From positions 193,508-246,456 of the forward strand of contig JAXLYP010000017.1 in the NCBI GenBank assembly GCA_046351395.1: a stretch of DNA of 52,949 nt, given 5' to 3'. This DNA is from Polyangiaceae bacterium. GTDB lineage: Bacteria > Myxococcota_A > Polyangia > Polyangiales > Polyangiaceae. Position 1 is the stretch's first letter, and each line of letters opens with the position of its first letter. Of the stretch, positions 7,704-32,622 are shown piece by piece. The position numbers were made by a program, and so were the translations under genes. The notes beneath the pieces are model-generated. The model did no database searches, was not told the DNA's origin, and saw nothing but the letters and a program-made list of their open reading frames with translations.

Positions 7704-10515
7704 GCGGAGTGTCTCGTGGTGCAGAAGGGAACAGCGACGTCGAGGACGGAATCGAGGCTCGGCGCGTCACCTCCGGCGCCTCGGGTTCGGCCGCGCGATC
7801 GGGAGCTCCAGCGAGGAGGGCGCGGGCGCGCGAGAAGTCGGTCACGTCCGGCTCCTCCCTACAGAGCTCCTCGATCCGCGGGAGCTGACTCGTCATCCCG
7901 AGCTCCGCCGCGTGATAGGCAGCGAACTTGCGGAGGATCGCGCTCGAGCTCCCCAGCATCTGCGCGATCGCCGTCTCGTAGTCGAGATCCACGGATGCAT
8001 GGAACTCCTTCCCGCGCGTGCGTCGCTCGACGTCGTCGACGTCATCGACGAGCCCGATGACGGCGTCGCGCAGCGGATTCTTGAGGACGATGTGGATGAG
8101 CTCGACGGCGGTCGCGCGGTGCTCCTTCCCGCCCCGCTCGATGCTCGTGAAGATCGCGTCGATCTCCTCGTTCGGGTTGAGCAGCGCCAGCAGCCGGAAC
8201 ACGCGACCCACCATGTGTCGCTGCTTGTCTCGCAGCAAATCCACGAGCAGGCCGTGCCCGACCGTCGCTCGGCGTGGGTCCTCCTCCCGCCCGCGCCGGA
8301 GCGCGACGAACCGATCGAAGGACCGGTAGGCGCGGGCGACCGTGCGCTGGATCTCCTCCCCGAGGAGGCGCTCGTCGAGGCGCGTCTCGGGCCGCGCGAC
8401 GACGATCTGTCCGAGCGCGAGGATCGAGCGATACCGCACCATCCCATCGGGCTCCTGTCCGAGGTTCGCGAGCAGGATCTCGGGCGCCTCGGGCGAGTCG
8501 ATGTCCGCGAAGAGGCTCGGCACGAGCCTCCGCACCGCCCGCGGGCGATCCCGATCGCGGAGCGCGCGGACGATCGCGCCCGCGCCCGCGGGGCCCGCGG
8601 CGCTCAGCGCGAGGCGGACGTCCGCGCCCACCTGACTGTCTGCGAGCAGGTCGACCAGGGTGTTCGCGGACGTCTCGGTCGCGAGCCCGCCGAGCGCCGC
8701 GATCGCCGCGCGGCGGACGTCGAGCTCGCGCGCGCGCGTGAGCTCGACGATCTCGGGCTCGAAGCGGGTCGCCTTGCGCCAGCCGACGACCTCGGCCAGG
8801 AGGCGCCGGCTCTCCACGCTGCCCTCCGAGACGATCCGCCCGAGCTCGTGGTGAGCCTCTTCCGCCTCCATCATGGAGAACGCAGCCATCGTCGTGAGGA
8901 TCGCCGCGCGGATGTCCGGCGAGGTCTCCCGCGCGAGCTGCTCTCTCCACCGCGTCGCGTCCGGCGCGAGCACCGCGCGAGCGGCCATCGCCTCGGCGCG
9001 GACGCGGATGGAGGGGTGGCGATCCAAGTGGGTGAGCGCGTGGAGCGCGACCTTCCGACCGCGCACGCCGAAGATCCGGAGCGCGGTCACGACGACGGTC
9101 TCCGACGGGTGATACAGGATGAGCCCCGGGATGACGTGGGCCTTCCCCTCCCGATCCAAGATCCGTAGCGAAGACACGACCGTGCTCTCCGCTTCGCTCT
9201 CGAGCGACTCGAGGAGCGACTCGAGGGAGGCCATGTCGAGCCGCATGAGCGCGCCCGCGAGCCGCCTCCGACCGGACGCGAGGGCGTCCTTGAAGAGCTG
9301 CGCGTAGTCGCCTCGGAGCCATGTCGCGAGGACGACCGCGCCCGCGGCCGTGACGACGAGGAGGACGGCGAGCCATCGCGGTGGCAGCTCGGTCGCCACC
9401 CCGACGAGGATGACGACCGAGCCCACCATCTGGGCGCCCCGTTGACCGAGCGCGTCCATGAAGCTCTTGGCGACCGTCCGCGGACCGTCCTCGAGGGGCA
9501 CGAGCAGGAGCTCCGCGGCCGTGCGGTGCACGCTGAAGCGCATGCTGCCGTCCACGGCCTTCGTGATCACGGCGGGCGCGAGCGTGCCCGTGATCGCGAC
9601 GCCGAGGCCCCCGGCGACGAGCCCGAACGGCAGCACCGCGAACACCAACGGGAGAGGCAAGCGCGCGACGAGCGATCGGACCGCGAACACCTGAACGCAG
9701 ACCGAGATCACGTTCAGGACCACGTTCACGCGGCCGAACACGCGCGCGAGCTGGTCGTGCGCGAAGTGGGCGGTGATCTGCGACTTGAAGATGAAGTCCG
9801 AGATCGTGACGGCGATCGTGATGAGGCCGCAGACCGCGACCACCCGTCGGATGTAGGGGTGGCGAAGGGCCGTGCCGAGGCGCTCGCCGAGCGTCCCGTC
9901 GCGCCCGTCGTGCTCGCCGTCGCGCGCGCGTTCGTCGAGGCCGCCGCTCGAGAACAGCATCGGCATCCAGGCGGCGCCGAAGAACAGCACGCCCGCGAAG
10001 AGGGAGAGGTTCGCCGGCGCGACCCACGTGACGAGCCCGACCGCGCCGCTGCCGAGGATCGCGCCGAGCCCGGCTCCGAGCCCGATCATCCCGTAGAGCC
10101 GTTTGGCCTGGCGAATCGAGAAGAGCCCTCCAACGAGGGACCAGAAATGGATGAGGACAATCGTCGAGAGGACGCCCGACCAGATGTAGAAGACATAGAG
10201 CCCGACCTCACCCAGGCTCGGCAGCGCACGGGAGAGCGCGATCGTCCCGAGCGACGAGGCGACCGTCCAGCCGATCAGCACGCGCCGCGGCGTCGTGCGC
10301 CGGAACACGGCTTGGGCGCGCGTCGCGACGAGCGTCGCGGCGGCGAGCGCGACGTACACCCAAGGGAGTCGGCTCGTCGGGATGTGGGCGAGGAACATCG
10401 CGTCGCGCGTCGCCTCGAGGATGCTGTGGCCGGCCACGAAGACGAACAGGAAGACAAAGGCGGTGATCGCATCCCGCCGCTCCGATCGCCGCACCGGGAA
10501 GAGCCGCCGCAGCAC
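7693..10515 (-). CDS. TLC/NTT-family (Npt1/Npt2-like, ATP/ADP-translocase-like) transporter with a C-terminal HEAT-repeat domain
   Basis: The N-terminal ~430 aa are polytopic with the NTT signature near helix 1 (AFVFLFVFVAGHSILEATRDAMFL, cf. LLLTAYYLIKPVREGL in the paralogue at 21720). The C-terminal ~450 aa are HEAT/PBS-lyase-like repeats (EAMAARAVLAPDATRWREQLARETSPDIRAAILTTMA...VRRAAIAALGGL...). GTG start at 10515, 1 nt after the stop of the upstream gene. Confidence 0.85.
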   Translation of the reverse strand: MLRRLFPVRRSERRDAITAFVFLFVFVAGHSILEATRDAMFLAHIPTSRLPWVYVALAAATLVATRAQAVFRRTTPRRVLIGWTVASSLGTIALSRALPSLGEVGLYVFYIWSGVLSTIVLIHFWSLVGGLFSIRQAKRLYGMIGLGAGLGAILGSGAVGLVTWVAPANLSLFAGVLFFGAAWMPMLFSSGGLDERARDGEHDGRDGTLGERLGTALRHPYIRRVVAVCGLITIAVTISDFIFKSQITAHFAHDQLARVFGRVNVVLNVISVCVQVFAVRSLVARLPLPLVFAVLPFGLVAGGLGVAITGTLAPAVITKAVDGSMRFSVHRTAAELLLVPLEDGPRTVAKSFMDALGQRGAQMVGSVVILVGVATELPPRWLAVLLVVTAAGAVVLATWLRGDYAQLFKDALASGRRRLAGALMRLDMASLESLLESLESEAESTVVSSLRILDREGKAHVIPGLILYHPSETVVVTALRIFGVRGRKVALHALTHLDRHPSIRVRAEAMAARAVLAPDATRWREQLARETSPDIRAAILTTMAAFSMMEAEEAHHELGRIVSEGSVESRRLLAEVVGWRKATRFEPEIVELTRARELDVRRAAIAALGGLATETSANTLVDLLADSQVGADVRLALSAAGPAGAGAIVRALRDRDRPRAVRRLVPSLFADIDSPEAPEILLANLGQEPDGMVRYRSILALGQIVVARPETRLDERLLGEEIQRTVARAYRSFDRFVALRRGREEDPRRATVGHGLLVDLLRDKQRHMVGRVFRLLALLNPNEEIDAIFTSIERGGKEHRATAVELIHIVLKNPLRDAVIGLVDDVDDVERRTRGKEFHASVDLDYETAIAQMLGSSSAILRKFAAYHAAELGMTSQLPRIEELCREEPDVTDFSRARALLAGAPDRAAEPEAPEVTRRASIPSSTSLFPSAPRDTPHAS

Positions 10516-14773: not shown

Positions 14774-15790
14774 ATGCCAACCGTCCTGTCGCAACCGCGT
14801 CGTACCGCGCCCGCATTCGCAGCACGTTCGATGTTCTTCGGTGTCTTGATCAATGGGATCGTCCCTTCGTCCGCGCTCGCAGATCCGCAAGTGGACACAG
14901 CGCCGAGCGCTCCGACGGAGAAGGCAACCGCCGCGCCCACGCCGCTCGCCACGAAGAGCGCCGCGGAGAAGAAGCCGGACTCGCTGGATTGGGATCCGCG
15001 TTGGCCGGAGGTGAAACCCTACGAGTACATCCTCACCGGTGTGTTCGCGCTCGCAGCGATCGGTGGACAGGCGATCCCCGGCGGCCCGAGGTGGACGGGG
15101 CACAACGCGTTCGACGACGCGGGCCGCGAGGCGTTGCTCTTGCCGGACTTCGAGGATCAGGAGCGCGCGAAGGACTTCAGCGACGTGGGCCTCGTGATCC
15201 TCGTGAACCAAGCGCTGATCGACAATCTCTTCGTCACGTGGTGGGCGCGTGATCACCCGAAGACCGCATGGCAGCTGTCCGTGATCGACACCGAGACGCT
15301 GGCGTTCAGTATCGGCGTGGACGCGCTCGTCGCCGGCGCGACGGGCCGCGAGCGCCCGTACGTCGAAGCGCTGTGCGATCAGGAGGACCACAAGAATCGC
15401 GGCTACTGCGACGGGAGCAACCGCTACCGAAGCTTCTTCAGCGGACACTCCACGGCCGCGTTCACCCTGGCGGGGCTCACGTGCATCCATCACGCGGAGC
15501 TCGGTATTTACGGCCACCCCGTCGCTGACGCGTTCGCGTGCGGCGGCGCGATGGCGACGGCGACGGGCGTCGCGCTCCTCCGTGTCGCCTCTGATCAGCA
15601 CGATCTCTCGGACGTGCTCGTCGGGGCAGTGTGGGGCACCGCGACCGGGGTCACGCTGCCGTGGCTCCTCCACTACCGGGGCGGGGCGAAGGTCGAAGAG
15701 AAGAAGCCGGACCCGCATGCCGCCGTCGAGGCCCCGCCGCCGGGCGTGGTCGTCACGCCGAGCGGCGCGTACGTCATGGGAGCGTTCTGA
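14774..15790 (+). CDS. Secreted PAP2-superfamily phosphatase
   Basis: Motifs GATGRERPY, SFFSGHS, RVASDQHDLSDVLVG. N-terminal hydrophobic signal; alternative start at the Met at 14831. Paralogue of 16722..17639. Confidence 0.8.
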   Translation: MPTVLSQPRRTAPAFAARSMFFGVLINGIVPSSALADPQVDTAPSAPTEKATAAPTPLATKSAAEKKPDSLDWDPRWPEVKPYEYILTGVFALAAIGGQAIPGGPRWTGHNAFDDAGREALLLPDFEDQERAKDFSDVGLVILVNQALIDNLFVTWWARDHPKTAWQLSVIDTETLAFSIGVDALVAGATGRERPYVEALCDQEDHKNRGYCDGSNRYRSFFSGHSTAAFTLAGLTCIHHAELGIYGHPVADAFACGGAMATATGVALLRVASDQHDLSDVLVGAVWGTATGVTLPWLLHYRGGAKVEEKKPDPHAAVEAPPPGVVVTPSGAYVMGAF

Positions 15791-15793
15791 GCG

Positions 15794-16690
15794 ATGGGGT
15801 CCTCGAGAGAACGCCGATGGAGCGTCGCCGCGCGATCGATCTTCGTGGTCGTGATCGCCGTTCTCACCCGAGAGGCGCGCGGTCAAGTGCTCGACCTCCC
15901 GGACGCGACGACGAACCCGACCGCGCCACCGCGGGACGTGGATCAGAAGCTCCCCTATTGGGAGAGAGGAGAGATCCGGCCATTCACGTCGGCGGTGTTC
16001 GACGTCGGCGGGTTCTTCGTGCGCCCCGAGTTGAACGTCGGCTACGGGCAGCCGCACTTCAACTGGATCGGCGCGGAGATCTTCAGCAAGCTCACGCTCG
16101 GCGGCGTGACGCTCGGAGCGGGCGTCCACGGTCAGATCCCGAACGTCGACGCGCGCCTCGGCGTGCGGTCGTTCCGGTCGGCGGATCAACGCCTGCTCCA
16201 GCGCAAGAACGTGTATCGGGAGTCGGACCCGACGATCCTCGATCAGCCCGCCTCGGCCTACGACAGCGTCGACGCGGATCTCGCGGTGAACGTCCGCGCG
16301 CTCGGAGGATCCGTCAGCTTGGAGACGCGCGCGCTCGCGCTCTTCCAGGTCCCCGACGGATATGACGTCTTCGAGGACGTGTTCCGCGTCGTGGTCCGAC
16401 CGCCGCTCGTCTGGCAGGCGAAATTGACGTATGTCGTCTTCGCGGGCTGGGACGATCGCCTCGCGCTCGGGTTCACGACGGAGCTCCTCGGCGCTCCAGC
16501 GAGAGACAACCTCGTCTTCCGCGTCGGCCCGGTGCTCACCGTCGCGTTGACGGAGCACCTCCAGGCGATCGGCGGCGGCGCCTTCGCGATCCTGTACCAC
16601 GACGATCTCGGCCTCAGCGGGTCGGATCTCGGGCAGATCGGTCTGCGCTACCGTTGGGCGTCGGGAGAGCCTTACCCCGACTTCCCGTGA
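15794..16690 (+). CDS. Secreted (possibly outer-membrane beta-rich) hypothetical protein
   Basis: ATG lies 3 nt after the PAP2 stop. Signal peptide MGSSRERRWSVAARSIFVVVIAVLTREARG. Amphipathic beta-strand-like C-terminal half. Confidence 0.6.
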   Translation: MGSSRERRWSVAARSIFVVVIAVLTREARGQVLDLPDATTNPTAPPRDVDQKLPYWERGEIRPFTSAVFDVGGFFVRPELNVGYGQPHFNWIGAEIFSKLTLGGVTLGAGVHGQIPNVDARLGVRSFRSADQRLLQRKNVYRESDPTILDQPASAYDSVDADLAVNVRALGGSVSLETRALALFQVPDGYDVFEDVFRVVVRPPLVWQAKLTYVVFAGWDDRLALGFTTELLGAPARDNLVFRVGPVLTVALTEHLQAIGGGAFAILYHDDLGLSGSDLGQIGLRYRWASGEPYPDFP

Positions 16691-16721: not shown

Positions 16722-17639
16722 TCAGAACTGCCCGCCCCAGGAGAGCTGCACGGGCGGCCGCGCGGTGACGAGCGGCGCGGACGCCGCCGCGCTCGTGTTC
16801 GGGCCGTCGACGGTCTGCGTGTAGTGCAGGGCGAGGGGGACCGCGAGGCCTACCCCGTACCCGAAGAGGAAGCCGCTGATCGCGTCGCTCATCCAGTGCC
16901 GATCGGAGATGACGCGCATCCCGGCGATGGTGACGGCGAGGGCCGTCGAGCCGACGCACGCGACGACGTCGGGCGCGCCGCCCCCGTAGAGCGGGACATA
17001 GGCGTGGTGGGCGCACGTCAGCCCCGCGCCGACCGCGCTCATCGTCGCGTGACCGCTGAACCAGCTCGCGTTGACGCCGAAGGAGCCACAGTCGTACGCC
17101 CAGCCTTTGTCTGTTTGGCATCCGATCCCGGCTGGGCGCTCCCGCGCGGCGAGCCGGTGGTTCACGCGCATGACGAGATACGCGATCCCGTAGGCCTCGA
17201 GGTTCATCGCCGTCAGCTGCTGGAGCATATCGAGGTTCTCGTCGATCGCCGGGACGAGGACTCCATCGATGAGGACGGGGTAGGCGGCGCTCACGGCGAG
17301 CAAGACGTCGCTCGCGATCTGAATGCCGCGTCGATCCTTAAGCCGCGGCATCGCGACGGCGTCGCGGGCGATCTCGTCGAACAGGATGGGCCCGATCCAC
17401 CGGGGCTCGATGGGCTGTTCGGTCCCGAACTCGATGATGCCCGCGCCGGTGATCGACAGGGCGGTGAGCGTGTACTCGCCCCACACGACGCGCGGGTGGG
17501 ACTCGTCCCAGTGCAGGCGGTGCTCGTCCTTGGCCTGCGCCGCTGCGCGCTCGCATGGCGCGAAAGCTGCGAGCGCCGCGCCCAGAAGGATCGCGTGTTG
17601 GTGTCTGTGCAGCGAGGAGTTCACCAGGGGATCCGTCAC
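16722..17639 (-). CDS. Secreted PAP2-superfamily phosphatase, paralogue of 14774..15790
   Basis: Motifs AARERPAG, WFSGHAT, RVISDRHWMSDAISG. Signal peptide; ends ...SWGGQF*. The ATG overlaps the stop of the upstream small lipoprotein (ATGA). Confidence 0.8.
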   Translation of the reverse strand: MTDPLVNSSLHRHQHAILLGAALAAFAPCERAAAQAKDEHRLHWDESHPRVVWGEYTLTALSITGAGIIEFGTEQPIEPRWIGPILFDEIARDAVAMPRLKDRRGIQIASDVLLAVSAAYPVLIDGVLVPAIDENLDMLQQLTAMNLEAYGIAYLVMRVNHRLAARERPAGIGCQTDKGWAYDCGSFGVNASWFSGHATMSAVGAGLTCAHHAYVPLYGGGAPDVVACVGSTALAVTIAGMRVISDRHWMSDAISGFLFGYGVGLAVPLALHYTQTVDGPNTSAAASAPLVTARPPVQLSWGGQF

Positions 17640-18190
17640 TCGGGTGAGGGGGTCGACGTCGAGGGCTTGGGCGGTTCGGGCGGGGGCGGCGGTGTGGGCT
17701 CTCGCAGCGAGGGCACCGCGGACGCGCTCGATCCTGGCGTGGGCTGCTCCTTCGTCCCCCCCTTGTCGATCGGCGGGCCCTTCTCCGTCCCGTTCGGATC
17801 CTGTTCGGAGGGCTCGAGGTGCTCCTTCGCGTCACGGACAAAGCCGCTCGTGGGGACGTATTTGTAGGTCGCCTTTTGTCCACAGCCGCTGACGCCGAAC
17901 GTCGTCGCGTCGAGCTCGGTGACGTCGAGCGCCGTGTTGCCGCAGGTGAGGTCGAACGCCGCGCGCTCGCGCAGCGAGACCCAGTCGTCCTTCACGGGGT
18001 CGTGGATGATGACGTCCTTCTTCCCGCAGCCCGTGACGATCCGGATCGGGCCGGCGTGGTTCGTCTCGATGTCGTCCTCCTCGCACTCGAGCGTGTGCCG
18101 AGCCTTCGGCATGATCGATGGCCAGAAGCACGCCCCGATCAGCGTCCCCGAGACCACGGAGAGTGTGACGGCAAGCCTCGATGCGCTCAT
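17636..18190 (-). CDS. Small lipoprotein with an internal Cys-containing repeat, translationally coupled to PAP2
   Basis: MSASRLAVTLSVVSGTLIGAC; repeats VTGCGKKDV and VSGCGQKATYKYV; Pro-rich tail. GGAG sits 3 nt upstream of the ATG. Confidence 0.6.
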   Translation of the reverse strand: MSASRLAVTLSVVSGTLIGACFWPSIMPKARHTLECEEDDIETNHAGPIRIVTGCGKKDVIIHDPVKDDWVSLRERAAFDLTCGNTALDVTELDATTFGVSGCGQKATYKYVPTSGFVRDAKEHLEPSEQDPNGTEKGPPIDKGGTKEQPTPGSSASAVPSLREPTPPPPPEPPKPSTSTPSPE

Positions 18191-18280
18191 GAGCTCCGGC
18201 CTCGTCCGAGGGACGTGAAGGTGCGCGGAGGGACCGCGCCGTGAACGAGCGCCCGTGGGGCGTTCATCTCGAAGAGCCAC

Positions 18281-18956
18281 TCACGAGCGCGATCCAAGGA
18301 CCGGACCATCGCCGAGGTCGTCCAAGTGGGAGGTGTCGGCGAGGCGCGTGGGGGTCCAGGCGAGCCCCGCGCTGTCGAGCCGGAATAGACTGGCCACGGG
18401 GCATGGAATGTCCTCCTCCGTGCCCGTGAGACCCTTCACGATCCCGAGGATGGCGACCGCGTGCGTCACGAGAAGGAGTGATCCGTCGTAGGTCGCGGCG
18501 AGGGCACGAGCGGTGAGGGCCGAGCGCGCGAACGCCTCCTCGATCGTCTCGAGCGATGGGGGCACCGAGCGGCGTGTGGCTCCGGTCCACCTCGACCCGC
18601 TCGAGGCGCGCTCGGAGCTCGTCCGCGGACAGCATGTCTCCTAGCCCCGGCCCCCAGTCGGGCCGCTGGAGCTCCGCGAGCCCCGGCTCGAGCGCCACGC
18701 CGCCTCCGATCACGCGCGCGACCTCGGCGGCGGTCTGGACGCAGCGGAGATAGGGGGACGACACGATCCGCGTGATGCCCGACGTCCCGAGGCGTGTCGC
18801 CACGGCTCGGGCCTCCTCGAGGCCGCGCGCGGACAATCCGGGATCGTGGGGCCGCGGGGCGGTGCGCCCCCACTCGAGGTCACTGAAATCGGCGCGGTCA
18901 CCGTGCCGAACCAGCCAAAGCGTTCGGGCGCGGACGGGCTCTGTGGCTGAGGTCAT
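18281..18956 (-). pseudogene. Histidine phosphatase (phosphoglycerate-mutase/SixA superfamily) with a frameshift in a G5/C5 homopolymer
   Basis: The N-terminal part, in the 18264..19064 frame, is MTSATEPVRARTLWLVRHGDRADF... (RHG motif) ...LSADELRARLERVEVDRSHTPLGAP. The C-terminal part, in the 18281..18565 frame, is PSLETIEEAFARSALTARALAATYDGSLLLVTHAVAILGIV. The two frames join if one base is removed from the run ggggg at ~18560-18564. Confidence 0.65.
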
Positions 18957-18996
18957 CGACGCTCCACGGGCACACAGCGTGCTTGGTTGGTATTCG

Positions 18997-19599
18997 ATGC
19001 ACGTCCTCCGCCATGCGGTGATGGGTGCGAGCATGGCGCTCGCCGGCTGCGCCTCGTCGCCCATGCCCGCGTGGCCCGTGTCGACCCCTGCGGAGCTCTG
19101 TCAGGACCCGACCCTCGGCCCCTCCGACTTCTGCATGCCCGCCGCGCGCATCGAGGTGTGGCTCCGCGAGGGCGACTTTCGGATCACGAACGTGGCGTTC
19201 TCGAGCTCGGGCGTGACGCGCCCCTACAAACTCAGGCTCGAGCTCGCGTCGGGGCTGACCATCAACGCGAAGTTCAAGCGCGCGCCGGACGATCTCGAGG
19301 CGTTCAACAACAGCCCGCGGCGCGAGCTCGCCGCCTATGAGATCCAGAAGCTGTTCTTGGACCCGGACGACTACGTCGTCCCTCCGACGGTGCTCGCCTG
19401 CATCCCGGCGCGCACCGAGCTGATGCCGGAGCTCGAGCCGCACCCGAGGGCGACGTGCGCGATCGGCGTACTCGCGTATTGGGTGGAGGGCCTCACGGAC
19501 CAGGGGGTCGTCGACCCCGCGCGGTGGGCGGCGGACGCGGGGTACCGCGACGTACCCGTTCACCCGTCGGACGGGATCAGCGTGGGGACTTCCAGTTGA
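18997..19599 (+). pseudogene. N-terminal part of a kinase-like lipoprotein gene interrupted by the IS66-family remnant
   Basis: MHVLRHAVMGASMALAGC (lipobox). ...FRITNVAFSSSGVTRPYKLRLELASGLTINAKFKRAP (beta1-3 with Lys), ELAAYEIQKLF (alphaC-like), CAIGVLAYWVEGL (hinge-like). The protein-like sequence ends in a short non-homologous tail before the stop at 19597-19599. Confidence 0.5.
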
Positions 19600-19669
19600 G
19601 CTGGGTCGCAAGCTGCAAGGAGGAAGCCGAGGATCGACCTTCGCTGGAGGCGAAGCGAATGGATCACGG

Positions 19670-21042
19670 TCATGACTCGCTGGGCGAACAGGCATCCTCG
19701 CTCGCTCTGGGAGCCGTAAGAGACCTTGCGCCAAAGCACGAACGGCGCAGCGCGCGCTCGGCATGATTATCAGGGATCCACTTCAGGCTCGAAGGCGAAC
19801 GTGAGGAGGGCGGCCTTGTGTTCGAGTATGTCGAGGCAGGAGCCGGAGACGCCGCGCAGGCGCAGCCCCGCGCCGCGTTCGAGGAGTCCCTCGAACGCCA
19901 TCTGCGCTGGTCGCCATCCTCTGGTACTTGGCGCGTGAGGGTGCCGTCCCGCACCTTGTGCCAGGCGGCAGCACAAGGTGAGAGAGCAGAGAAGGTCCTC
20001 CCCGAGTTGGCGTCCCGCGTCCTTGCGTTCGGAGAAGGCGACGAACTTCCTGATGAGGTGCGCCCAGCAGATCTGCCGCCGCCCTGATGGCCCAGAAGCC
20101 GAACTGCGAGCCTCGGTCCGTCACCAAGGATCCCGGAGAGGGCCCATGAGCGCGGCGATTGTCCGCGACAAGCATCGGCGGTGACGAAGAACACAGCGAC
20201 GGACCGCGTTGCGATCGTCCAGAGCGCGGCATACAGGCCGGCGACTCGCCAGGTGCTTCCGTCCACGTGCTTCACGGGGTGCGCGCGGACGTAGCAGGCC
20301 GCGGCATCCACCGGGGCAGCGATAGCGTCGTTGATCCGCTCCTCGGCCTCGCTGAGGGCGCCGAGCGAGACTGGGATGCCGAAGATCTCGGAGAGGTACT
20401 CCCGGCAACTGTCGCGCCACTGTCCGCGCGCCGAGGAACAGCCGATGAACGCGAGCAGCCGGGGACCGAACATGTGGCTCGGGACGCTGCCGGCAGACTC
20501 GCCCACGTCGTCTTCCCGCAGTCCTTGCAACAGGCCCCGCCCATGACGATCTCGTGAACGTCCGGCTTGATCCTTCGGGGATGTCGACGACCTGATGCAG
20601 GCGCGGGTCGATCCCCTCCGCCGCGAGATTCCGTCCGCCGCATCCTCGACATCTCTTCGGCGCCAGCTTCGTCCGACGGGTCACCTTCTCGGGCGGGAAC
20701 AGCACGCGGGTGTTCGGCTTGTGTCCGGGCTGGCCGCCGCGACTTCGACCGGTCGGCTTCTTCTCGGGTCGAGTCCCAGGTAGATCGGTCGACGGAGGCT
20801 TGCCCGACTCCTCGAGTTCTGCCCCAGCTGCTGCTCGAGGTCGGCGACTCGCACCTTGAGCTGCGCGATCTCCGCGTCCTGCCCGCGATGATCGGTGTCG
20901 CGCTCCGCGACCATGGCAAGCAGCGCCGCGACCTGGGCTTCCAACTTCGCCAGACGCTTGCCGACCGAGGTCACCGACCCACTCGATCATGCGGCGATCC
21001 TCGTGTCGATCCCCGATCGCGTATGATCACATATGATCATGT
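19670..21042 (-). mobile_element. IS66-family transposase (TnpC) remnant with multiple frameshifts; possible imperfect terminal repeats at both ends
   Basis: Fragments in three minus-strand frames, in TnpC order: leucine zipper (LAKLEAQVAALLAMVAERD...LEQQLGQNSRSR, 20974..20681); zinc-finger region (RGGQPGHKPNTRVLFPPEKVTRRTKLAPKRCRGCGG...HQVVDIPE); DDE-core pieces (HVDGSTWRVAGLYAALW..., then LVTDRGSQFGF). AT-rich near-palindromic ends: catgattatcag (~19762) and tgatcacatatgatcatg (~21024-21042). Confidence 0.7.
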
Positions 21043-21549
21043 ATGGCTGCTCGACCCGGTGAACGGGTACACCGCGACAACCTCGGGAACTTGAACGTGC
21101 TGACGGCGCTCATCGGTCACCAAGACGACATTGGAGTGAACTTCTACCGGTCGAAGGACGCGGCGCGCCCGCGGCTATTGTCTGTCGACAATGGGCTCGC
21201 GTTCGGCGCGATGGGAGACAATCCCATTCGGTTCTTCAGCAGCGCATGGAGCGACGTGCGAGTCCCGCTCCTGCCTTCGAAGACGGTGGACAGGCTCGGC
21301 TCGGTCGACCGGGCGCGCCTCGAGCCCCTCGGCGTGGTCGCGCAGATGCGCCTCGAGGGCGGCGCGTTCCATCCCATCCCACGGACGCCGACGCTCGATC
21401 CGAACCAGGCCGTGCGCTGGAACGGGGACGACGTCCAGCTCGGGCTCACCGCCGAGGAGATCACGGACGTCGATGTCCGGCTGGCACGGCTCCTCGGCGC
21501 GATCGACTCCGAGGAGGTCCAGCGCGGTCGTCCCCGCGAATCGAAGTGA
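21043..21549 (+). pseudogene. C-terminal part of the interrupted kinase-like lipoprotein gene
   Basis: ...VHRDNLGNLNVLTALIGHQDDIGVNFYRSKDAARPRLLSVDNGLAFGA... has an HxDxxxxN catalytic-loop-like motif and a DNG (DFG-position) motif. There is an in-frame stop just upstream (21034), consistent with truncation. Confidence 0.5.
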
Positions 21550-21719
21550 TCGCTCGCTTCGAGGGGAGATCGCTGCCGACGATCGACGTCGCCGAGGAGG
21601 GCGGTGCGCTCGCCACCTCGGCGTGGGTCGAAAGTGCCTCGACTTGGCACCCAAATGCCACATCGAGCCGCCCTGCGAGCCCTCCTCGGGCTGGTGCGCG
21701 AATCGCATGAGCACCAAGG

Positions 21720-23159
21720 ATGAGCAACGCGCCGCGACGATCGTCGAGTCCACCCGATCCCAAAGAGGTCGCCCGGCGCTCCCTCGTCGAACGAGCGCTC
21801 GGGGTGATCACCGAGGTGAGGGCAGGCGAGGGGGGGACCGCACTCCTCATGACGCTCAATGTCTTTCTGCTGCTCACCGCATACTATCTCATCAAGCCGG
21901 TCCGTGAGGGCCTCATCGGGAGCGTGAAGCACGGCCCCGAGTACAAGAGCTACATGGGGGGCGCGGTCGCGCTCGCGCTCTTCGCCATCGTCCCGCTCTA
22001 CGGGATGCTCGCCGCGAGGCTGAAGCGGAACGTGCTCATCTCGAGCGTCTCGCTCTTCTTCGTCGCGAACCTCGTCGGCTTCTGGATGCTCGGCCGCCTC
22101 CCCTGGGTCGCGACCGAGACGGGGGCGACGGTCTATGCGCTCGCGTTCCTCCTCTGGGTGGGCGTGTTCAACCTCATGATCGTCGCGCAGTTCTGGGCGT
22201 TCGCCGCCGACGTGTACACCGACGAGCAGGGGAAGCGGTTGTTCGCGCTCATCGGTCTGGGCGCGTCCGTCGGCGCGGTGATGGGGAGCCTGGTCATGAA
22301 CCGCGTCGTGACCGAGCTCGGCACGGAGCACATGATGCTCGTCGCCGCCGTGACGCTCGCGCTCGCGACGGCGGTGACGCTGCTCATCCATCGGCGCGAG
22401 TCCCGGCGGCCGCGGGCGCCGGACCCGGAGAAGGAGCGGAAACAGCGCGAGGAGAAGGAGGCGAAGCAGAGCAGTCAGGGCGCGTTCTCGCTCGTGCTCC
22501 ACGACCGGTATTTGCTGCTCATCGCGGCGTTCACCGTGCTCTTCCAGATCGTGAACACCAATGGCGAGTTCATCCTCTCGAGCCTCGTGGCGGACGCGTC
22601 GCGCGCCGTGACCGAGACGCGAGAGGAGCAGAAGGCGTGGATCGCCTCGTACTACGGGAGCTTCTTTCTCTGGGTGAACATCGCGGGCGTGGCGATCCAG
22701 ACGTTCCTCGTCTCGCGGATCGTGAAGTGGGGCGGGCTCAAGGTCGGCCTCCTCATCTTCCCCGTCGTCGCGCTCATCAGCGAGGCGGCCATCGCGGTCG
22801 TCCCGGTGCTCCTCCTCGTTCGGATCGGCAAGACGGCGGAGAACTCGCTCGACTATTCGCTCAACAACACGCTCCGCAACGCCCTCTGGCTCCCCACGAC
22901 GACGCGCGCGAAGTACGTCGCGAAGCAGGCGATCGACAGCTTCGTGTCGCGCGTGGGCGACATGGGGTCGGCGCTCGCGATCTTCATCCTCATCGACGCG
23001 CTCCACTTGACCGTGCGAGCGGTCGCGACGCTCAACGCGTGCCTCGTCCTCGCTTGGATCTACGTGTCGATCGAGATCGTCCGCGAGAACGGCAAGCTCA
23101 CCGAGGACGCGAAGGGCAAAGCGCTTTCACGGCTGGAGGCGGCGGGGGCGAGCGCGTGA
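21720..23159 (+). CDS. TLC/NTT-family (Npt1/Npt2-like) nucleotide-transporter-like membrane protein
   Basis: N-terminal signature ...GVITEVRAGEGGTALLMTLNVFLLLTAYYLIKPVREGLIG.... About 12 predicted TM helices and a charged central loop (RRESRRPRAPDPEKERKQREEKEAKQ). The stop overlaps the GTG of the next gene (GTGA). Confidence 0.9.
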   Translation: MSNAPRRSSSPPDPKEVARRSLVERALGVITEVRAGEGGTALLMTLNVFLLLTAYYLIKPVREGLIGSVKHGPEYKSYMGGAVALALFAIVPLYGMLAARLKRNVLISSVSLFFVANLVGFWMLGRLPWVATETGATVYALAFLLWVGVFNLMIVAQFWAFAADVYTDEQGKRLFALIGLGASVGAVMGSLVMNRVVTELGTEHMMLVAAVTLALATAVTLLIHRRESRRPRAPDPEKERKQREEKEAKQSSQGAFSLVLHDRYLLLIAAFTVLFQIVNTNGEFILSSLVADASRAVTETREEQKAWIASYYGSFFLWVNIAGVAIQTFLVSRIVKWGGLKVGLLIFPVVALISEAAIAVVPVLLLVRIGKTAENSLDYSLNNTLRNALWLPTTTRAKYVAKQAIDSFVSRVGDMGSALAIFILIDALHLTVRAVATLNACLVLAWIYVSIEIVRENGKLTEDAKGKALSRLEAAGASA

Positions 23160-26075: not shown

Positions 26076-27797
26076 GTGGCCGACGCGCAGACCGAACGCT
26101 GCGAGGGATGTGGCGCCGAGCTGACCGCGGGCGCCCGCTTCTGCGCGACGTGTGGGCGCCCGGTCGCCGCGCTCGCTCCAACCGAGCTGCACGCCCCGAG
26201 GTTCGACGCGACCCCCGCGATGCGCCTCGCGCCGGGGACGATGCTGGGGAGTTACCGGATCGAGGCGCTCCTCGGCGAAGGCGGGATGGGCGTCGTCTAC
26301 CGCGCGCGCGACGAGGTCATGCACCGCACGGTCGCGCTCAAATGTCTGCACACGAACCTCGCGGGGGACGCGGGGATCCGCCGGCGCTTCGGGCGAGAGG
26401 CGCGCGCGCTCGCGACGGTCGTGCACCCGAACGTCGTGCGCGTGTACGACTTCGTCGATCACGAGCACGTCCCCGCGATCGTCATGGAGCTCGTCGACGG
26501 ACCGAGCCTGTCCGCGCACGTCGCGGCGTGGCGTGAGTCCGTCCCGTTCGAGGAGATCCGCGGCCTCTTCGGGCAGATCCTCGCCGCCGTCGGCCACGGG
26601 CACGACAACGGCATCATCCACCGCGATCTCAAGCCAGACAATGTGCTGCTCGCGCGGGAGGCGCGCGGGCTCCGCCCGAAGGTCGTGGATTTCGGGCTCG
26701 CGAAGATCCTCGAGGGGACGACGTACACCGTCACGGGCGCCCTCCTCGGGACGTGCCGGTACATGGCGCCCGAGCAGGTGCAGGACCCGGAGCGCGCGGA
26801 TCTGCGCGCCGACATCTATTCGCTGGGCGTCACCCTCTATCAGCTCGTGACGGGGAGCGTGCCCTTCGATCGGGCGACCCACTTCGCGGTCATGATGGCG
26901 CACGTCAACGAAGCACCGCGCCCGCCATCCTCGATCCGCGCGGACGTCCCTGCGCTCCTCGAGCGCCTCGTCCTCGACGCGCTCGCGAAGGATCCGAGCG
27001 CGCGCCCTCCCTCGTGCGCCGTGTTCCGCGAGCGGCTCGACGAGGCGCTCGCGGCGTACGAGCCGGAGGACGCACCGCCGGGCTCGCTCCCGCGCGTCGT
27101 GCGAGGGGCGGAGACGGCAGATCTCGTGCTCGTGCCCGAGGGTCCGTTTCTCTTTGGCCCGCACCGGCGCCGCGTCGATTTGGACGCGTTCTACATCGAT
27201 CGGACGCCGGTCACGAACGGCGAGTTCGCCGCGTTCGTGAGGGCCACGCGATATGCGCCGTCGGACGAGGGGAGCGGACGGTTCCTGCATCACTTCCGGG
27301 GTGGGAAGGCGCCCGTCGGCGCGGAGCATCACCCGGTGACGCACGTCTCGTGGACCGACGCGCGGGCGTACGCGACGTGGGCGGGCAAGCGACTCCCGAC
27401 GGAGGCGGAGTGGGAGAAGGCCGCGCGAGGGACGGACGGACGGAGGTACCCATGGGGCCGCGCGGAGCCCACCGCGGATCGCGCGAACTACGGGAAGCTG
27501 AACGGTGGAACGACGCCCGTCACCGCGCACGCCGCGGGAGCGTCACCGTACGGTGTGTTGGATCTTGCGGGCAATGTCTGGGAGTGGTGCGAGGACGTCG
27601 ACGATCCCGCGTTTTACCTCGACGGTCCTACGCGGAACCCGAAGAACGCGCCGCGCGCGGGCGAGCGCGCGCGGCACGTGGTGCGCGGCGGCTCCTGGCT
27701 CTACGGCCCGCGCGCCCTGCGCACGGTGTACCGCGCGAGCTTCGAAGCGCACTATCGCGTCGCGAGCGGCGGATTCCGCTGCGCGCGCTCCGCCTGA
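26076..27797 (+). CDS. Ser/Thr protein kinase with N-terminal zinc ribbon and C-terminal FGE-sulfatase (SUMF1/formylglycine-generating-enzyme-like) domain
   Basis: SD ggaggg lies 5 nt upstream of GTG 26076. CEGCGAEL...CATCG. Kinase motifs GSYRIEALLGEGGMGVVYRA, VALK, HRDLKPDNVLL, DFG, APE. FGE-like domain RTPVTNGEFAAFV...HPVTHVSWTDARAYATWAGKRLPTEAEWEKAARG...GNVWEWC...RGGSW. Confidence 0.9.
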   Translation: MADAQTERCEGCGAELTAGARFCATCGRPVAALAPTELHAPRFDATPAMRLAPGTMLGSYRIEALLGEGGMGVVYRARDEVMHRTVALKCLHTNLAGDAGIRRRFGREARALATVVHPNVVRVYDFVDHEHVPAIVMELVDGPSLSAHVAAWRESVPFEEIRGLFGQILAAVGHGHDNGIIHRDLKPDNVLLAREARGLRPKVVDFGLAKILEGTTYTVTGALLGTCRYMAPEQVQDPERADLRADIYSLGVTLYQLVTGSVPFDRATHFAVMMAHVNEAPRPPSSIRADVPALLERLVLDALAKDPSARPPSCAVFRERLDEALAAYEPEDAPPGSLPRVVRGAETADLVLVPEGPFLFGPHRRRVDLDAFYIDRTPVTNGEFAAFVRATRYAPSDEGSGRFLHHFRGGKAPVGAEHHPVTHVSWTDARAYATWAGKRLPTEAEWEKAARGTDGRRYPWGRAEPTADRANYGKLNGGTTPVTAHAAGASPYGVLDLAGNVWEWCEDVDDPAFYLDGPTRNPKNAPRAGERARHVVRGGSWLYGPRALRTVYRASFEAHYRVASGGFRCARSA

Positions 27798-29636: not shown

Positions 29637-30266
29637 TCAAGGGCAGCCCCCATCGATCACGAGTCCAGTCCGGCCGAGCGGCTCGGCGTCGGGCGTCCAG
29701 TCGAGCCCGTCCGCGAACGACATCACGCCCTCCACGTCCACCGCGCAGGGGGGAGCTGAAATCGCGAGCTTCCCACCGAGCGAGGTCGCGTTCGCGATCT
29801 CGCCGATGGGTGTAGGCGGACCGATCCCGGTCCACGGCGCGCAGTCGTCCGCGTCGTGGGTGACGCGCGCGAACTTGATGAGATCGAGCGGGTATTGCCC
29901 GAGATCGACGACCTCCATCGAGAGCGCGTCGAGCCCGAGCTGGAAGCAGAGATCCCGCGCGTCGTCGCGCTTGAGGATCGCGACGGCCCCGGCGTTCGTG
30001 AAGAGGTTGATGGCGCTGTAGGCGTCGCAGGGACCCGCGCACGATCCACTCCCCGTGCTGCTCGACGCGCTCGCGCTCCCGGCTCCACTTCCGGTCGCGC
30101 TCGAGCCGACGGTCGTTCCGCCCCCATCATCCTCGAGCGTGGCGACGTCGCGACACGCGCCGAGGAGCACAATCGCGATCACGAGGGTCGCCCGCGGCGC
30201 CGTGCGCTCGCGAAGGAGTGCTCCGAGGGAGGTCCCTTGGGGTGCGGTTTCGCCGCGCGCCCTCAT
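29637..30266 (-). CDS. Lipoprotein (Gly/Ser-rich linker plus Cys-containing domain), translationally coupled to the TssC-like gene
   Basis: ATG 30266..30264 overlaps the TssC stop (ATGA). ...TLVIAIVLLGAC (lipobox), GSSATGSGAGSASASSSTGSGSCAGPCDAYSAINLF... Confidence 0.6.
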   Translation of the reverse strand: MRARGETAPQGTSLGALLRERTAPRATLVIAIVLLGACRDVATLEDDGGGTTVGSSATGSGAGSASASSSTGSGSCAGPCDAYSAINLFTNAGAVAILKRDDARDLCFQLGLDALSMEVVDLGQYPLDLIKFARVTHDADDCAPWTGIGPPTPIGEIANATSLGGKLAISAPPCAVDVEGVMSFADGLDWTPDAEPLGRTGLVIDGGCP

Positions 30267-31607
30267 GGATCGAGCGTCCCTTTCAAGCTGAGCGTGAAGA
30301 ACGCGCCCATGTGCTTGAAGTGCGGGCGCAGCCTCAGATCGAAGGAGCGCCACGCCTCGCCGTCGGTCGAGTCGCGCACGATCACCTGCACCTTCCGCAG
30401 CGGCCTTCGCCCCCGGAGCGCGGGGGGCACGACCTCCCGATCGGCGACGTATTGGCCCGCCCAGTCGTTGAGCTCGCGTTCGTCGTCCACTGCCGTCGTC
30501 GCCCATGATGGCTTTTCGACACGCCGAGGGGGCGCGCCCGGGACGAGCGCCTCTGGGTCGTTGATTTGGAAGGAGCGGTGCACCACCTTCAGGTACTGAC
30601 CAATCCTCGTGGAGATGAACACGTAGGGGAGCTCGGTGCCGAGCCGGTGGTTGAACTCGGCGGCGCGCGCCTCCTCCGAGTTGCCGAAGCGCTTGGGCTT
30701 CATGAGCGACCGCGCCGAGAAGAAGCCCGCGGACGTCGCGTCGACGAAGGAGAGGGGAATGAACCCCTCCTCCGACAGATCGTACTCGGTCCGCTCGCCG
30801 AGGTTCGCGTCGAGCGGCGAGATCGCGCCCTCGGGCGCGCGCGGCAGGTCCTCGATCAGGCCGTCCGCGCGCCCGACGATGTTCGGACACCAGCGGTACT
30901 TCGCGAACGACGACGTGAGGCGCGTCGCGAACGCAACGACCGCGAGCCCCCAAGCGAGATCTTCGGCGCGAGCGGTCTCGTCGTACGTGAAGCCCCCGAG
31001 CGTCTCGGTCGCCTCACGGGCAACGGCGAAGGGAGCGCGGAGGAGGAATCGGCCCACGGTGAGCCCCAGGAGGGATGCGCTCGCCTGGTCTCGCAGTGCA
31101 GCGAACGCGCGGTGATGCGCGGCGAAGTGCGCAAGAAGATCGACCGTGCCGATCGCGCGGCGGTCCTCGATCCCGAAGAAGCCTGGTGAGGCGGCCGCGA
31201 TGAAGGGGGCGAGGGAGCACGTCCCGACCTCCGCGATGCGCTCGAGGAGCGTGATGTCCTCCGGCGTGGGGTCGAACTCGAAGTCGGCGAGGATCGCCCC
31301 GTACGGTCGGTCGGTCGCGCCTCGGGCCGTCACCGCAAAGAACGCGCTCTCGCGCGCGGGCGCGCCGGAGCGCACGAGGTCGACGCGGAGCTCGTCGAGC
31401 GTACACGGGTAGAACGCGATCTCGATGTTCTCGCGGAAGTTCGTCCGCTCGACCAGGAACGCGAGGCTCCGCCACGCCCGCTCGAGGCGCTGGAACTTCG
31501 GGTGATGGAGGATCGCGTCGAGCTGCGCGGCGATCCGACGGTCCAGCGAGTCGATGATCGCGTCCGCGCGCGTGGCGGCGAGATCGACGAGGAGCGCATC
31601 ATCGTGC
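30263..31607 (-). CDS. T6SS contractile-sheath large-subunit (TssC/VipB)-like protein, N-terminally short
   Basis: Full-length colinear similarity to VipB: AQLDAILHHPKFQRLERAWRSLAFLVERTNFRENIEIAF..., FAKYRWCPNIVG, LPYVFISTRIGQYLKVVHR, LRLRPHFKHMGAFFTLSLKGTLDP*. Only ~30 aa precede the ILHHP motif, against ~80 in V. cholerae VipB. No tssB lies upstream; the divergent DTW gene starts 68 bp away. Confidence 0.85.
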
Positions 31608-31675
31608 CGTACCATCCTGGCATTCGGACCTGCGCGACCTCGCTTGTCAAGGCACGGTGCGCCGATGAAGGCGCC

Positions 31676-32371: not shown

Positions 32372-32622
32372 CTGGACGACCCGGCGTCTGCCCGTGGATA
32401 CGTGCGACGACCACCGAGCGCACGCAATTCCGCGGAGGACCGCGGCTGAATGGCTCCGTTCTGCGGCGGGTCCTCCACCGCATTCCACGACCGCCCTCCT
32501 GGGCGAAGTGGACAAAAGGCTCCGAATGTCCTCCTCGCGTTGGCGCGCGACGAGGAACTCCGCACGTCGCGGGTGCTCCGCGCGCCGCTCCCCGGGCCAA
32601 CGCGCTGATAGCGTCTCCATCG

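What the first reader, a model, noticed from the sequence alone, without database searches (positions are those of the whole stretch)
18997..21549. Kinase-like lipoprotein gene of module 2 is split by a decayed IS66-family element
The N-lobe-like half (18997..19599) and the catalytic-loop half (21043..21549) of one kinase-like ORF are separated by ~1.4 kb carrying frameshifted IS66 TnpC fragments (leucine zipper, GGQPGHK zinc finger, DDE pieces) on the opposite strand. AT-rich near-palindromic ends lie at ~19762 and ~21024-21042. Module 2 may therefore be non-functional while module 1 is intact, which gives a natural loss-of-function comparison.
Basis: partly seen in the sequence, partly recalled or inferred. 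Interest (0 to 1): 0.6.

Follow-up and report, generated by a model that had tools for sequence, protein, structure and literature searches.

The report
Insertion sequence splits exported kinase gene
A 1.5-kb mobile element of the IS66 family has landed in the middle of a gene for an exported kinase-like lipoprotein in an uncultured Polyangiaceae bacterium; gene disruption of this kind is ordinary, but the broken gene belongs to an undescribed family that resembles animal secretory-pathway kinases.

Summary
The core observation holds, but the coordinates and part of the interpretation do not. One 341-codon gene is cut between codons 185 and 186 by a 1,519-bp single-ORF IS66-family element (ISBst12 type). 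The element lies at 19552-21070 on the minus strand. It has perfect 13-bp terminal inverted repeats (GTACCCGTTCACC) and an 8-bp target duplication (ACCGCGAC).

Removing the element and one repeat copy restores an in-frame protein. It aligns end to end with uninterrupted homologs (up to 69% identity). It folds confidently (pLDDT 91.9) into a Fam20 / PI4K-type-II-like kinase with conserved catalytic residues.

The transposase gene has 17 small frameshifting indels relative to an intact 92%-identical relative. The host gene halves show no damage at all. Decay in place after insertion is therefore very unlikely (P about 1e-5). Either a copy that was already defective was mobilised in trans, or the indels are assembly errors.

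The window holds no second copy of the kinase-like gene, so the proposed "module 1 versus module 2" comparison fails.

A side result: this small family is repeatedly adjacent to, and once fused with, TLC/NTT nucleotide transporters.

The parts
18997..19551 (+). Native 5' part of the kinase-like lipoprotein gene (codons 1-185). It has a signal peptide with lipobox LAGC (Cys18), the N lobe with K92 and E110, and Cys pairs 35/46 and 135/154.
   Evidence: In-frame join. It aligns with full-length homologs. It is annotated in the source as U0414_27365, which includes a 15-codon element-derived tail. Residue conservation.
19544..19551 (.). Left copy of the 8-bp target-site duplication ACCGCGAC (parts of codons Y183-R184-D185).
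   Evidence: Identical 8-mers directly abut both inverted repeats.
19552..21070 (-). IS66-family, ISBst12-type insertion sequence, 1,519 bp, single-ORF layout.
   Evidence: End-to-end blastn alignment with the intact element L001:89-1617 (92% identity). It is the only copy in the window. The same terminal sequence, GTAMCCGTTCAC, occurs in about 20 related metagenomic elements of about 1.5 kb.
19552..19564 (.). Terminal inverted repeat at the transposase-distal end (GTACCCGTTCACC). On the minus strand it contains the transposase stop codon (19560-19562).
21058..21070 (.). Terminal inverted repeat at the transposase-proximal end (GGTGAACGGGTAC on the + strand).
19560..20974 (-). Transposase (TnpC-like, DDE) pseudogene. 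It has 17 indel events of 1-2 nt relative to the intact 474-aa P0121 gene, but no in-frame stop once the frame is repaired.
21023..21040 (.). Subterminal near-palindrome ATGATCACATATGATCAT, between the inverted repeat and the transposase start.
   Evidence: It is nearly identical in L001. Its function (promoter or transposase-binding site) is inferred, not tested.
21071..21078 (.). Right copy of the 8-bp target-site duplication ACCGCGAC.
21079..21549 (+). Native 3' part of the kinase-like gene (codons 186-341 plus stop). It holds the catalytic-loop equivalent GHQDDIGVN (H199, D201, N206) and the VDNG motif (D222-N223-G224).
   Evidence: It is annotated in the source as U0414_27380, starting at an element-borne ATG at 21043.
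21720..23159 (+). Downstream TLC/NTT-type (MFS-like) transporter gene on the same strand, 171 bp after the kinase-like stop. It is the conserved partner of the kinase-like family and appears intact.
   Evidence: Pfam TLC 2.6e-16 and MFS_1 1.1e-16. Adjacency in other genomes. The fusion protein P0324.
18281..18957 (-). Divergently oriented histidine-phosphatase (His_Phos_1) gene with a frameshift at the G5 run 18558-18562. It is a neighbour and is not part of the insertion event.
   Evidence: Pfam hits split over two frames. The single-ORF homologs in L006 and L007 align to the window in frames -1 and -2.

Best explanation
A single-ORF IS66-family insertion sequence (ISBst12 type, about 1.5 kb) transposed into the target ACCGCGAC, inside codons 183-185 of a 341-codon gene, and duplicated those 8 bp.

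The gene encodes an exported lipoprotein with a Fam20 / PI4K-type-II-like atypical kinase fold. The element sits inside the helix (residues 181-196) that leads into the catalytic loop. The signal peptide and N lobe are therefore separated from the catalytic C lobe. The 5' fragment ends after 15 element-encoded codons. The 3' fragment has no export signal. The allele is therefore expected to be null (inferred).

As sequenced, the element cannot make transposase, because at least 15 of its frameshifts are uncompensated. The host gene halves, however, are undamaged. The insertion is therefore recent compared with the damage to the element. The most likely account is that a copy that was already defective, but had intact ends, was mobilised in trans by a functional copy elsewhere in the genome. 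The alternative is that the indels are consensus errors in a repeat.

Shown here: the boundaries, the target duplication, the family, the continuity and fold of the restored protein, and the contrast between element and host in indel load.

Inferred: loss of function, mobilisation in trans, and any polar effect on the downstream TLC transporter gene.
For: - Ends and target duplication read directly from the sequence.
- The alignment with the intact element L001:89-1617 starts and stops exactly at the inverted repeats: 1408/1536 identical, 24 gap columns.
- The closest intact protein, P0121 (474 aa), carries PF03050 + PF20042 and scores 242.6 bits on NF033517. The repaired window translation scores 217.5 bits; the cutoff is 180.
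- The terminal sequence GTAMCCGTTCAC recurs in about 20 related 1.5-kb elements. Three of them (L054, L124, L125) show 8-bp duplications.
- ISBst12 elements are defined by a single ORF and an 8-bp direct repeat (PMC12898284).
- The joined protein matches uninterrupted homologs at 99% coverage (P0001, 69% identity). It aligns without a gap across DAGYRD|NLGNLN, where Y183 is conserved in 68 of 69 sequences.
- All 45 loci from GTDB genomes, and nearly all of the top 150 hits in an exhaustive search, are single uninterrupted genes of about 320-360 aa.
- AlphaFold2: pLDDT 91.9, pTM 0.90.
- The element has 17 indel events, 111 mismatches (codon positions 26/14/68), 0 stops after repair, and 57 synonymous versus 32 nonsynonymous codon differences.
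- The host halves have 0 indels in 1,026 nt and keep 41 of 42 positions conserved at 90% or more. P(0 indels) is about 1e-5 at the element's indel rate.
Against: - No empty-site allele was found.
- No closer or identically frameshifted copy of the element was found. Mobilisation in trans is therefore unproven.
- The indel-to-substitution ratio is unusually high for natural decay.
- The source contig is 246 kb, which would fit a long-read assembly. The neighbouring His_Phos frameshift lies in a homopolymer. Both fit sequencing error.
- Only 53 kb of the genome could be examined, so whether an intact helper copy exists is unknown.
- Loss of function was not measured.
Confidence: 0.85

Rival explanations
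1. Old insertion that decayed in place. The element inserted long ago, and its transposase gene then picked up frameshifts at this site.
For: 17 frameshifting indels with a deletion bias (12 deletions, 5 insertions, net -10 nt), as expected for bacterial pseudogene decay. A neighbouring gene (His_Phos) is also frameshifted.
Against: After the insertion the two host gene halves would also be free of selection. They have 0 indels and 0 stops in 1,026 nt and keep 41 of 42 highly conserved residues, the same as intact homologs. P is about 1e-5 at the element's indel rate. The element's substitutions look selected: third-position bias 26/14/68, 57 synonymous versus 32 nonsynonymous, no nonsense codon.
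Confidence: 0.05
2. The element is intact and recently active. Its 17 small indels are consensus errors left in a repeated sequence of a metagenome-assembled genome, for example a long-read assembly whose repeats were not polished.
For: The indel density in the element is about 1.1%. The surrounding genes are nearly free of indels, with full-length Pfam coverage across many genes. After repair there are no in-frame stops, and identity to an intact transposase is 91% at the protein level. The contig is 246 kb. The other frameshift seen lies in a G5 homopolymer.
Against: Most of the element's indels are not in homopolymers. The copy is a distinct variant, 7% diverged by substitution from the nearest known element, so cross-mapping of reads from other copies is not evident. 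No read data could be examined.
Confidence: 0.3
3. The junctions are an assembly chimera, or the insertion is present in only a minority of the population. The organism would then effectively have an intact gene.
For: This is a metagenome-assembled genome. Insertion polymorphism within populations is common. The pristine host halves fit a very recent or polymorphic event.
Against: Both junctions lie in one contig. A perfect 8-bp duplication of the length expected for this family is present, and removing the element restores the frame exactly. An assembler join would not create a target duplication. No empty-site sequence was found in the metagenome collection, although this is weak because the source sample may not be in that collection.
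Confidence: 0.05

Closest known systems
ISBst12 group of the IS66 family (e.g. ISBst12; ISDge4 of Deinococcus geothermalis)
   Same: A single transposase ORF with no tnpA/tnpB. Length about 1.5 kb. An 8-bp target duplication. Terminal repeats beginning 5'-GTA. A transposase with an N-terminal coiled coil (DUF6444) and the IS66 DDE domain.
   Different: The terminal repeat is GTACCCGTTCACC, not GTAAC/GTGAC.... This copy carries 17 frameshifting indels. The nearest intact relative is only 92% identical in DNA and comes from an unnamed metagenomic contig. ISfinder could not be queried, so no element name can be assigned.
Canonical IS66 (tnpA-tnpB-tnpC, about 2.5-2.7 kb)
   Same: Homologous TnpC transposase (NF033517, PF03050) and an 8-bp duplication.
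   Different: There is no room for tnpA and tnpB, and none is present. The whole element is 1,519 bp and is almost filled by the TnpC-like ORF.
Fam20 secretory-pathway kinases (Fam20C, Fam20B) and type II PI 4-kinases
   Different: Sequence identity is 12-18%. The window protein has no Pfam hit. Only 1 of 69 family members touches PF06702 (E 0.022). 23 of 69 weakly touch PF00454. The protein is bacterial and a lipoprotein, about 340 aa long, and its substrate is unknown.
CotH (Bacillus spore-coat kinase), the described bacterial relative of Fam20C
   Different: The structural match is much weaker than to Fam20 or PI4KII, with 7% identity. The architecture and gene context are different.
NTT/TLC nucleotide transporters, including NTT-HEAT with an adjacent cNMP-binding gene (Major et al. 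2017)
   Same: The window has an NTT-HEAT gene followed by a cNMP-binding gene (7693-10515 and 6822-7703). This is the arrangement described in PMC5381601. It also has a short TLC gene just after the kinase-like gene.
   Different: The link between TLC genes and this kinase-like family was not mentioned in the parts of that paper I read. The transport substrate and direction are unknown.

Membership tests
IS66 family | DDE transposase homologous to IS66 TnpC (NCBIfam NF033517 / Pfam PF03050) | tested here: met
   The repaired translation scores 217.5 bits (cutoff 180). The intact relative P0121 scores 242.6 bits. The unrepaired fragments hit profile positions 1-52, 82-195 and 342-383, each below the cutoff.
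IS66 family | 8-bp target-site duplication | tested here: met
   ACCGCGAC at 19544-19551 and 21071-21078. Related elements in L054, L124 and L125 also show 8-bp duplications.
IS66 family | Terminal inverted repeats beginning 5'-GTA(A) | tested here: met
   A perfect 13-bp repeat, GTACCCGTTCACC. It starts GTAC rather than GTAA. Related elements show GTAACC, GTACCC or GTATCC.
IS66 family (canonical three-gene type) | Accessory genes tnpA and tnpB upstream of tnpC | tested here: not met
   The element is 1,519 bp, and the TnpC-like frame occupies 19560-20974. There is no space for further genes.
ISBst12 group of the IS66 family | A single transposase ORF, about 1.5 kb, an 8-bp direct repeat (as described in PMC12898284) | tested here: met
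   The intact relative L001 is 1,529 bp with one 474-aa ORF.
Autonomous (active) insertion sequence | An uninterrupted transposase reading frame | tested here: not met
   17 indel events of 1-2 nt relative to L001. The frame changes repeatedly. This holds for the sequence as given. Sequencing error cannot be excluded.
Protein-kinase-like superfamily, Fam20 / PI4K type II branch | A bilobal kinase fold that superposes on solved members | tested here: met
Protein-kinase-like superfamily, Fam20 / PI4K type II branch | Conserved catalytic residues (ATP-binding Lys, paired Glu, catalytic Asp, metal-binding Asn and Asp) | tested here: inconclusive
   K92 is conserved in 67/69, E110 in 63/69, D201 in 68/69, N206 in 67/69 and D222 in 69/69. 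Their equivalence to the catalytic residues of Fam20 and PI4KII rests on motif order, not on a residue-level superposition.
Pfam Fam20C (PF06702) / PI3_PI4_kinase (PF00454) | A sequence match above the family gathering threshold | tested here: not met
   The window protein has no Pfam or NCBIfam hit at E <= 1. Among 69 members, 23 touch PF00454 at E <= 0.1 (best 1.4e-7) and 1 touches PF06702.
Protein-kinase-like superfamily | Phosphotransfer activity | not testable with these tools
   This needs a biochemical assay.
Bacterial lipoprotein | A signal peptide ending in a lipobox with an invariant Cys | tested here: met
   MHVLRHAVMGASMALAG|C with Cys18. The Cys is conserved in 45/69 members. Cys pairs 35/46 and 135/154 are co-conserved. 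No dedicated signal-peptide predictor was available.

The most novel reading that the evidence does not exclude
The disrupted gene belongs to an undescribed bacterial family of extracytoplasmic Fam20/PI4KII-like kinases. These would work together with a TLC/NTT-type ATP/ADP exchanger that supplies ATP to the periplasm and returns ADP. Partner phosphatases (PAP2, His_Phos, Metallophos) would reverse the modification. This would be a bacterial counterpart of phosphorylation in the eukaryotic secretory pathway.

Evidence so far:
- fold and conserved catalytic residues;
- lipobox and co-conserved Cys pairs;
- a TLC gene directly adjacent in 9-10 of 45 loci, from genomes labelled Myxococcota/Deltaproteobacteria, Spirochaetaceae and Polyangia, and within 8 kb in 17 of 45;
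- one TLC-kinase-like fusion, with an extra hydrophobic segment between the two domains (P0324);
- kinase-like-Metallophos fusions (P0257, P0274);
- PAP2 or His_Phos neighbours in the closest relatives.

The direction of transport, the substrate and the activity are all untested.
Probability: 0.25. Interest if true: 0.7.

Novelty: new member of a known kind. Interest (0 to 1): 0.3.

Why it matters
The insertion itself is routine genome biology. Its practical value is a corrected annotation. Two 'hypothetical proteins' in the public record (U0414_27365 and U0414_27380) and a 97-aa fragment (U0414_27375) are really one broken gene plus a defective IS66-family element.

Two by-products are more useful. 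First, a heavily frameshifted element sits next to an undamaged host gene. That dates the insertion as recent, and it warns that 'decayed' elements in metagenome-assembled genomes may be either trans-mobilised defective copies or unpolished repeats. Second, the host gene marks a small, unannotated family: about 300 clusters at E <= 1e-30 among 1.84 billion representatives. The family has a Fam20/PI4KII-like fold, a predicted location outside the cytoplasm, and a repeated genomic link to nucleotide transporters. That points to a testable question: do some bacteria phosphorylate targets in the periplasm using exported ATP?

Tried and rejected
1. A second kinase-like gene ('module 1') in the window. 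tblastn with the joined protein and a family HMM over all six frames found only the two halves. hhalign of 15794-16690 against the family gave probability 0.1%. Its AF2 model is all-beta. It has no PDB sequence match and is unrelated to 17636-18280.
2. An empty-site allele. An exact 24-mer across the restored junction gave 0 hits in metagenome contigs.
3. Other copies carrying the same frameshifts. Exact look-ups of six element ORF fragments found none, or only the source contig. A JGI metagenome scan with P0121 found nothing closer than 73%.
4. The source contig through the look-up of encoding contigs: not on record. The source genome is not among the GTDB representatives.
5. Target duplications in L001-L005. 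The flanks differ on the two sides, probably because these are short contigs assembled across a multi-copy repeat, so they are uninformative.
6. Pfam and NCBIfam on the joined protein: no hits. A PDB sequence profile search gave only insignificant hits, including Vps34 at E 0.35.
7. A promoter scan of 18200-21800: no sigma-70-like sites.
8. The afdb50 fold library was not available. Han et al. 2001 (PMC95320) is not held.
9. Other mobile elements in the window, wanted as an internal control for indel errors: none found among the ORFs scanned.
Full report
**What is in the sequence.** The window has about 70% G+C. Its proteins match a Polyangiaceae metagenome-assembled genome (locus tags U0414_, contig of 246,456 bp).

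On the + strand, an ORF starting at 18997 encodes a signal peptide with a lipobox (MHVLRHAVMGASMALAG|C) and runs to a stop at 19597-19599. A second + strand ORF runs from 21043 to 21549.

The DNA between them, read on the minus strand, shows pieces of an IS66-type transposase spread over all three frames. These pieces match NCBIfam NF033517 at profile positions 1-52, 82-195 and 342-383. Each piece is far below the cutoff because the frame is broken.

**Limits of the element.** A perfect 13-bp inverted repeat, GTACCCGTTCACC, lies at 19552-19564 and, as its reverse complement, at 21058-21070. Directly outside both arms is the same 8-mer, ACCGCGAC (19544-19551 and 21071-21078). The element is therefore 19552-21070, 1,519 bp long.

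A rough stitched transposase found an intact 474-aa protein, P0121, which carries PF03050 and PF20042. Its contig L001 holds a 1,529-bp element (L001:89-1617). That element aligns with the window element from its first base to its last and no further: 1408/1536 identical, 24 gap columns.

About 20 more distant 1.5-kb relatives from metagenomes have the same termini (GTAMCCGTTCAC). Three of them, which have usable flanks (L054, L124, L125), show 8-bp duplications.

A single ORF, an 8-bp repeat and GTA-type ends are the features of the ISBst12 group of the IS66 family, as described for ISDge4 (PMC12898284).

Position ~19762 is the DPTNNHAER coding region, where 2 nt are missing. 21023-21040 is a subterminal palindrome that is nearly identical in L001.

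**The host gene.** Joining 18997-19551 to 21079-21549 removes the element and one repeat copy. This gives an in-frame 341-aa protein.

- It matches uninterrupted proteins over 99% of its length (P0001, 69% identity; P0002 and P0003, 65%).
- It aligns without a gap across the junction DAGYRD|NLGNLN, where Y183 is conserved in 68 of 69 sequences.
- All 45 related loci in GTDB genomes are uninterrupted.
- An exhaustive profile search of 1.84 billion representatives finds 723 clusters at E <= 1e-3 and 303 at E <= 1e-30. Nearly all of the top 150 listed are 320-360 aa and are matched in one stretch.

In the 3' ORF, the 'HRD' in VHRDNLGNL is made from the last base of the element plus the repeat. 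The native residues are YRD.

**Fold and likely activity.** With a 69-sequence alignment, AlphaFold2 gives pLDDT 91.9 and pTM 0.90. The junction falls inside helix 181-196, just before the H199-D201-N206 loop.

- At the sequence level the window protein hits nothing in Pfam or NCBIfam.
- 23 of 69 members touch PF00454 weakly, and one touches PF06702.
- K92, E110, D201, N206 and D222-N223-G224 are conserved in 63-69 of 69 members. The lipobox Cys and two Cys pairs (35/46 and 135/154) are co-conserved.

I infer that the family consists of active, extracytoplasmic atypical kinases. Activity and substrate are untested.

**State of the element compared with the host gene.** Relative to L001, the window element has 17 indel events, all of 1-2 nt: 12 deletions and 5 insertions, net -10 nt. 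It also has 111 mismatches, distributed 26/14/68 over codon positions. Two of the indels lie 10 nt apart and compensate each other, which leaves about 15 real frameshifts.

After the frame is repaired, the translation is 432/475 identical to P0121. It has no in-frame stop, and codon differences are 57 synonymous to 32 nonsynonymous. It scores 217.5 bits on NF033517. The substitutions therefore look like divergence between working elements, with an unusual excess of indels on top.

By contrast, the 1,026 nt of host coding sequence have no indel and no stop. They keep 41 of 42 positions that are at least 90% conserved, the same as intact homologs. At the element's indel rate, the chance of zero indels is about 1e-5.

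Decay in place after an old insertion can therefore be set aside. Two explanations remain. Either a defective copy with good ends was moved by a transposase supplied in trans, or the indels are consensus errors in a repeat. I could not separate these two:

- no closer copy was found;
- no empty site was found;
- the window has no other repeat that could serve as a control.

The neighbouring His_Phos gene is also frameshifted, at a G5 run (18558-18562). Its homologs in L006 and L007 are single ORFs. This could be a real slippage mutation or a sequencing error.

**The 'modules'.** A family HMM run over all six frames finds only the two halves. The unannotated gene at 15794-16690 is a predicted all-beta protein with no detectable relation to the family.

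What does recur in the window is:

- two PAP2 genes, 32% identical;
- two TLC-type transporters: a long TLC-HEAT gene followed by a cNMP-binding gene at 6822-10515, and a short TLC gene at 21720-23159.

In other genomes, the TLC-HEAT, cNMP, kinase-like and short TLC genes occur together in one cluster (L015, L017, L020). They look like parts of one neighbourhood, not duplicate modules. The proposed natural loss-of-function comparison within this window is therefore not available.

**Gene context of the family (side result).**

- A TLC gene is directly adjacent to the kinase-like gene in 9-10 of 45 loci, mostly on the same strand and 8-140 bp away. It lies within the fetched flank in 17 of 45.
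- One protein (P0324, 804 aa) fuses a TLC domain, an extra hydrophobic segment and the kinase-like domain. Two others (P0257, P0274) fuse the kinase-like domain to a Metallophos phosphoesterase.
- The closest relatives have a PAP2 or His_Phos gene as the divergent neighbour.
- NTT-HEAT with an adjacent cNMP-binding gene is a described but functionally unexplained arrangement (PMC5381601).

A model that fits these data is an exported kinase fed by an ATP/ADP exchanger and opposed by partner phosphatases. This is inference only.

**Verdict.** This is a real but ordinary event: an ISBst12-type IS66-family element interrupting a gene. The corrected boundaries are 19552-21070, with the target duplication ACCGCGAC. 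The finding itself is of low interest. The host gene family is the part worth following up.

Noticed in passing
window 18281-18957 (-), frameshift at the G5 run 18558-18562: The histidine-phosphatase (His_Phos_1) gene, divergent from the kinase-like gene, is split over two frames. Its homologs in L006 and L007 are single ORFs. The shift sits in a homopolymer, so it could be a real slippage mutation or a sequencing error.
   Followed up: partly
window 19552-21070 compared with 18997-19551 + 21079-21549: The element has 17 small indels but no nonsense codon, and its substitution pattern looks selected. The interrupted host gene has no lesion at all. The indel-to-substitution ratio is unusually high for natural decay.
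   Followed up: partly
window 21720-23159 (+); loci L014, L016, L017, L020, L032, L038, L040 (same strand) and L009, L019, L042 (divergent); protein P0324: The kinase-like family is repeatedly next to a TLC/NTT-type transporter gene. In one 804-aa protein it is fused to one, with an extra hydrophobic segment between the two domains.
   Followed up: partly
proteins P0257 and P0274; loci L006, L007, L131: Members of the kinase-like family are fused to a calcineurin-like phosphoesterase (Metallophos), or sit beside PAP2 or His_Phos phosphatase genes. This suggests a kinase-phosphatase pairing.
   Followed up: partly
window 6822-10515 (-): A TLC-HEAT transporter gene (940 aa) is immediately followed by a cNMP-binding protein gene. 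This is the NTT-HEAT + cNBD arrangement described by Major et al. 2017. In L015, L017 and L020 the same pair lies in the same cluster as the kinase-like gene.
   Followed up: partly
window 14774-15790 (+) and 16722-17639 (-), with 15794-16690 (+) between them: Two PAP2 paralogs (32% identity) in convergent orientation flank a gene for a predicted all-beta, barrel-like protein (U0414_27345). Only about 10 homologs of that protein were found in the 5.8-billion-protein collection.
   Followed up: partly
window 21023-21040: A near-palindrome, ATGATCACATATGATCAT, lies between the terminal repeat and the transposase start. It is nearly identical in the intact relative L001. It may be a promoter or transposase-binding site.
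   Followed up: no
loci L051-L079, L124, L125: A subfamily of about 1.5-kb single-ORF IS66-type elements shares the terminus GTAMCCGTTCACSGGG across about 20 metagenome contigs. Most contigs are barely longer than the element, as expected for collapsed multi-copy repeats.
   Followed up: partly
window 26076-27797 (+) and 30263-32716 (-): A Hanks-type Ser/Thr kinase is fused to an FGE-sulfatase domain and has an N-terminal zinc ribbon. There is also a type VI secretion sheath gene (VipB/TssC) whose ORF, as listed, extends far upstream of the domain match.
   Followed up: no
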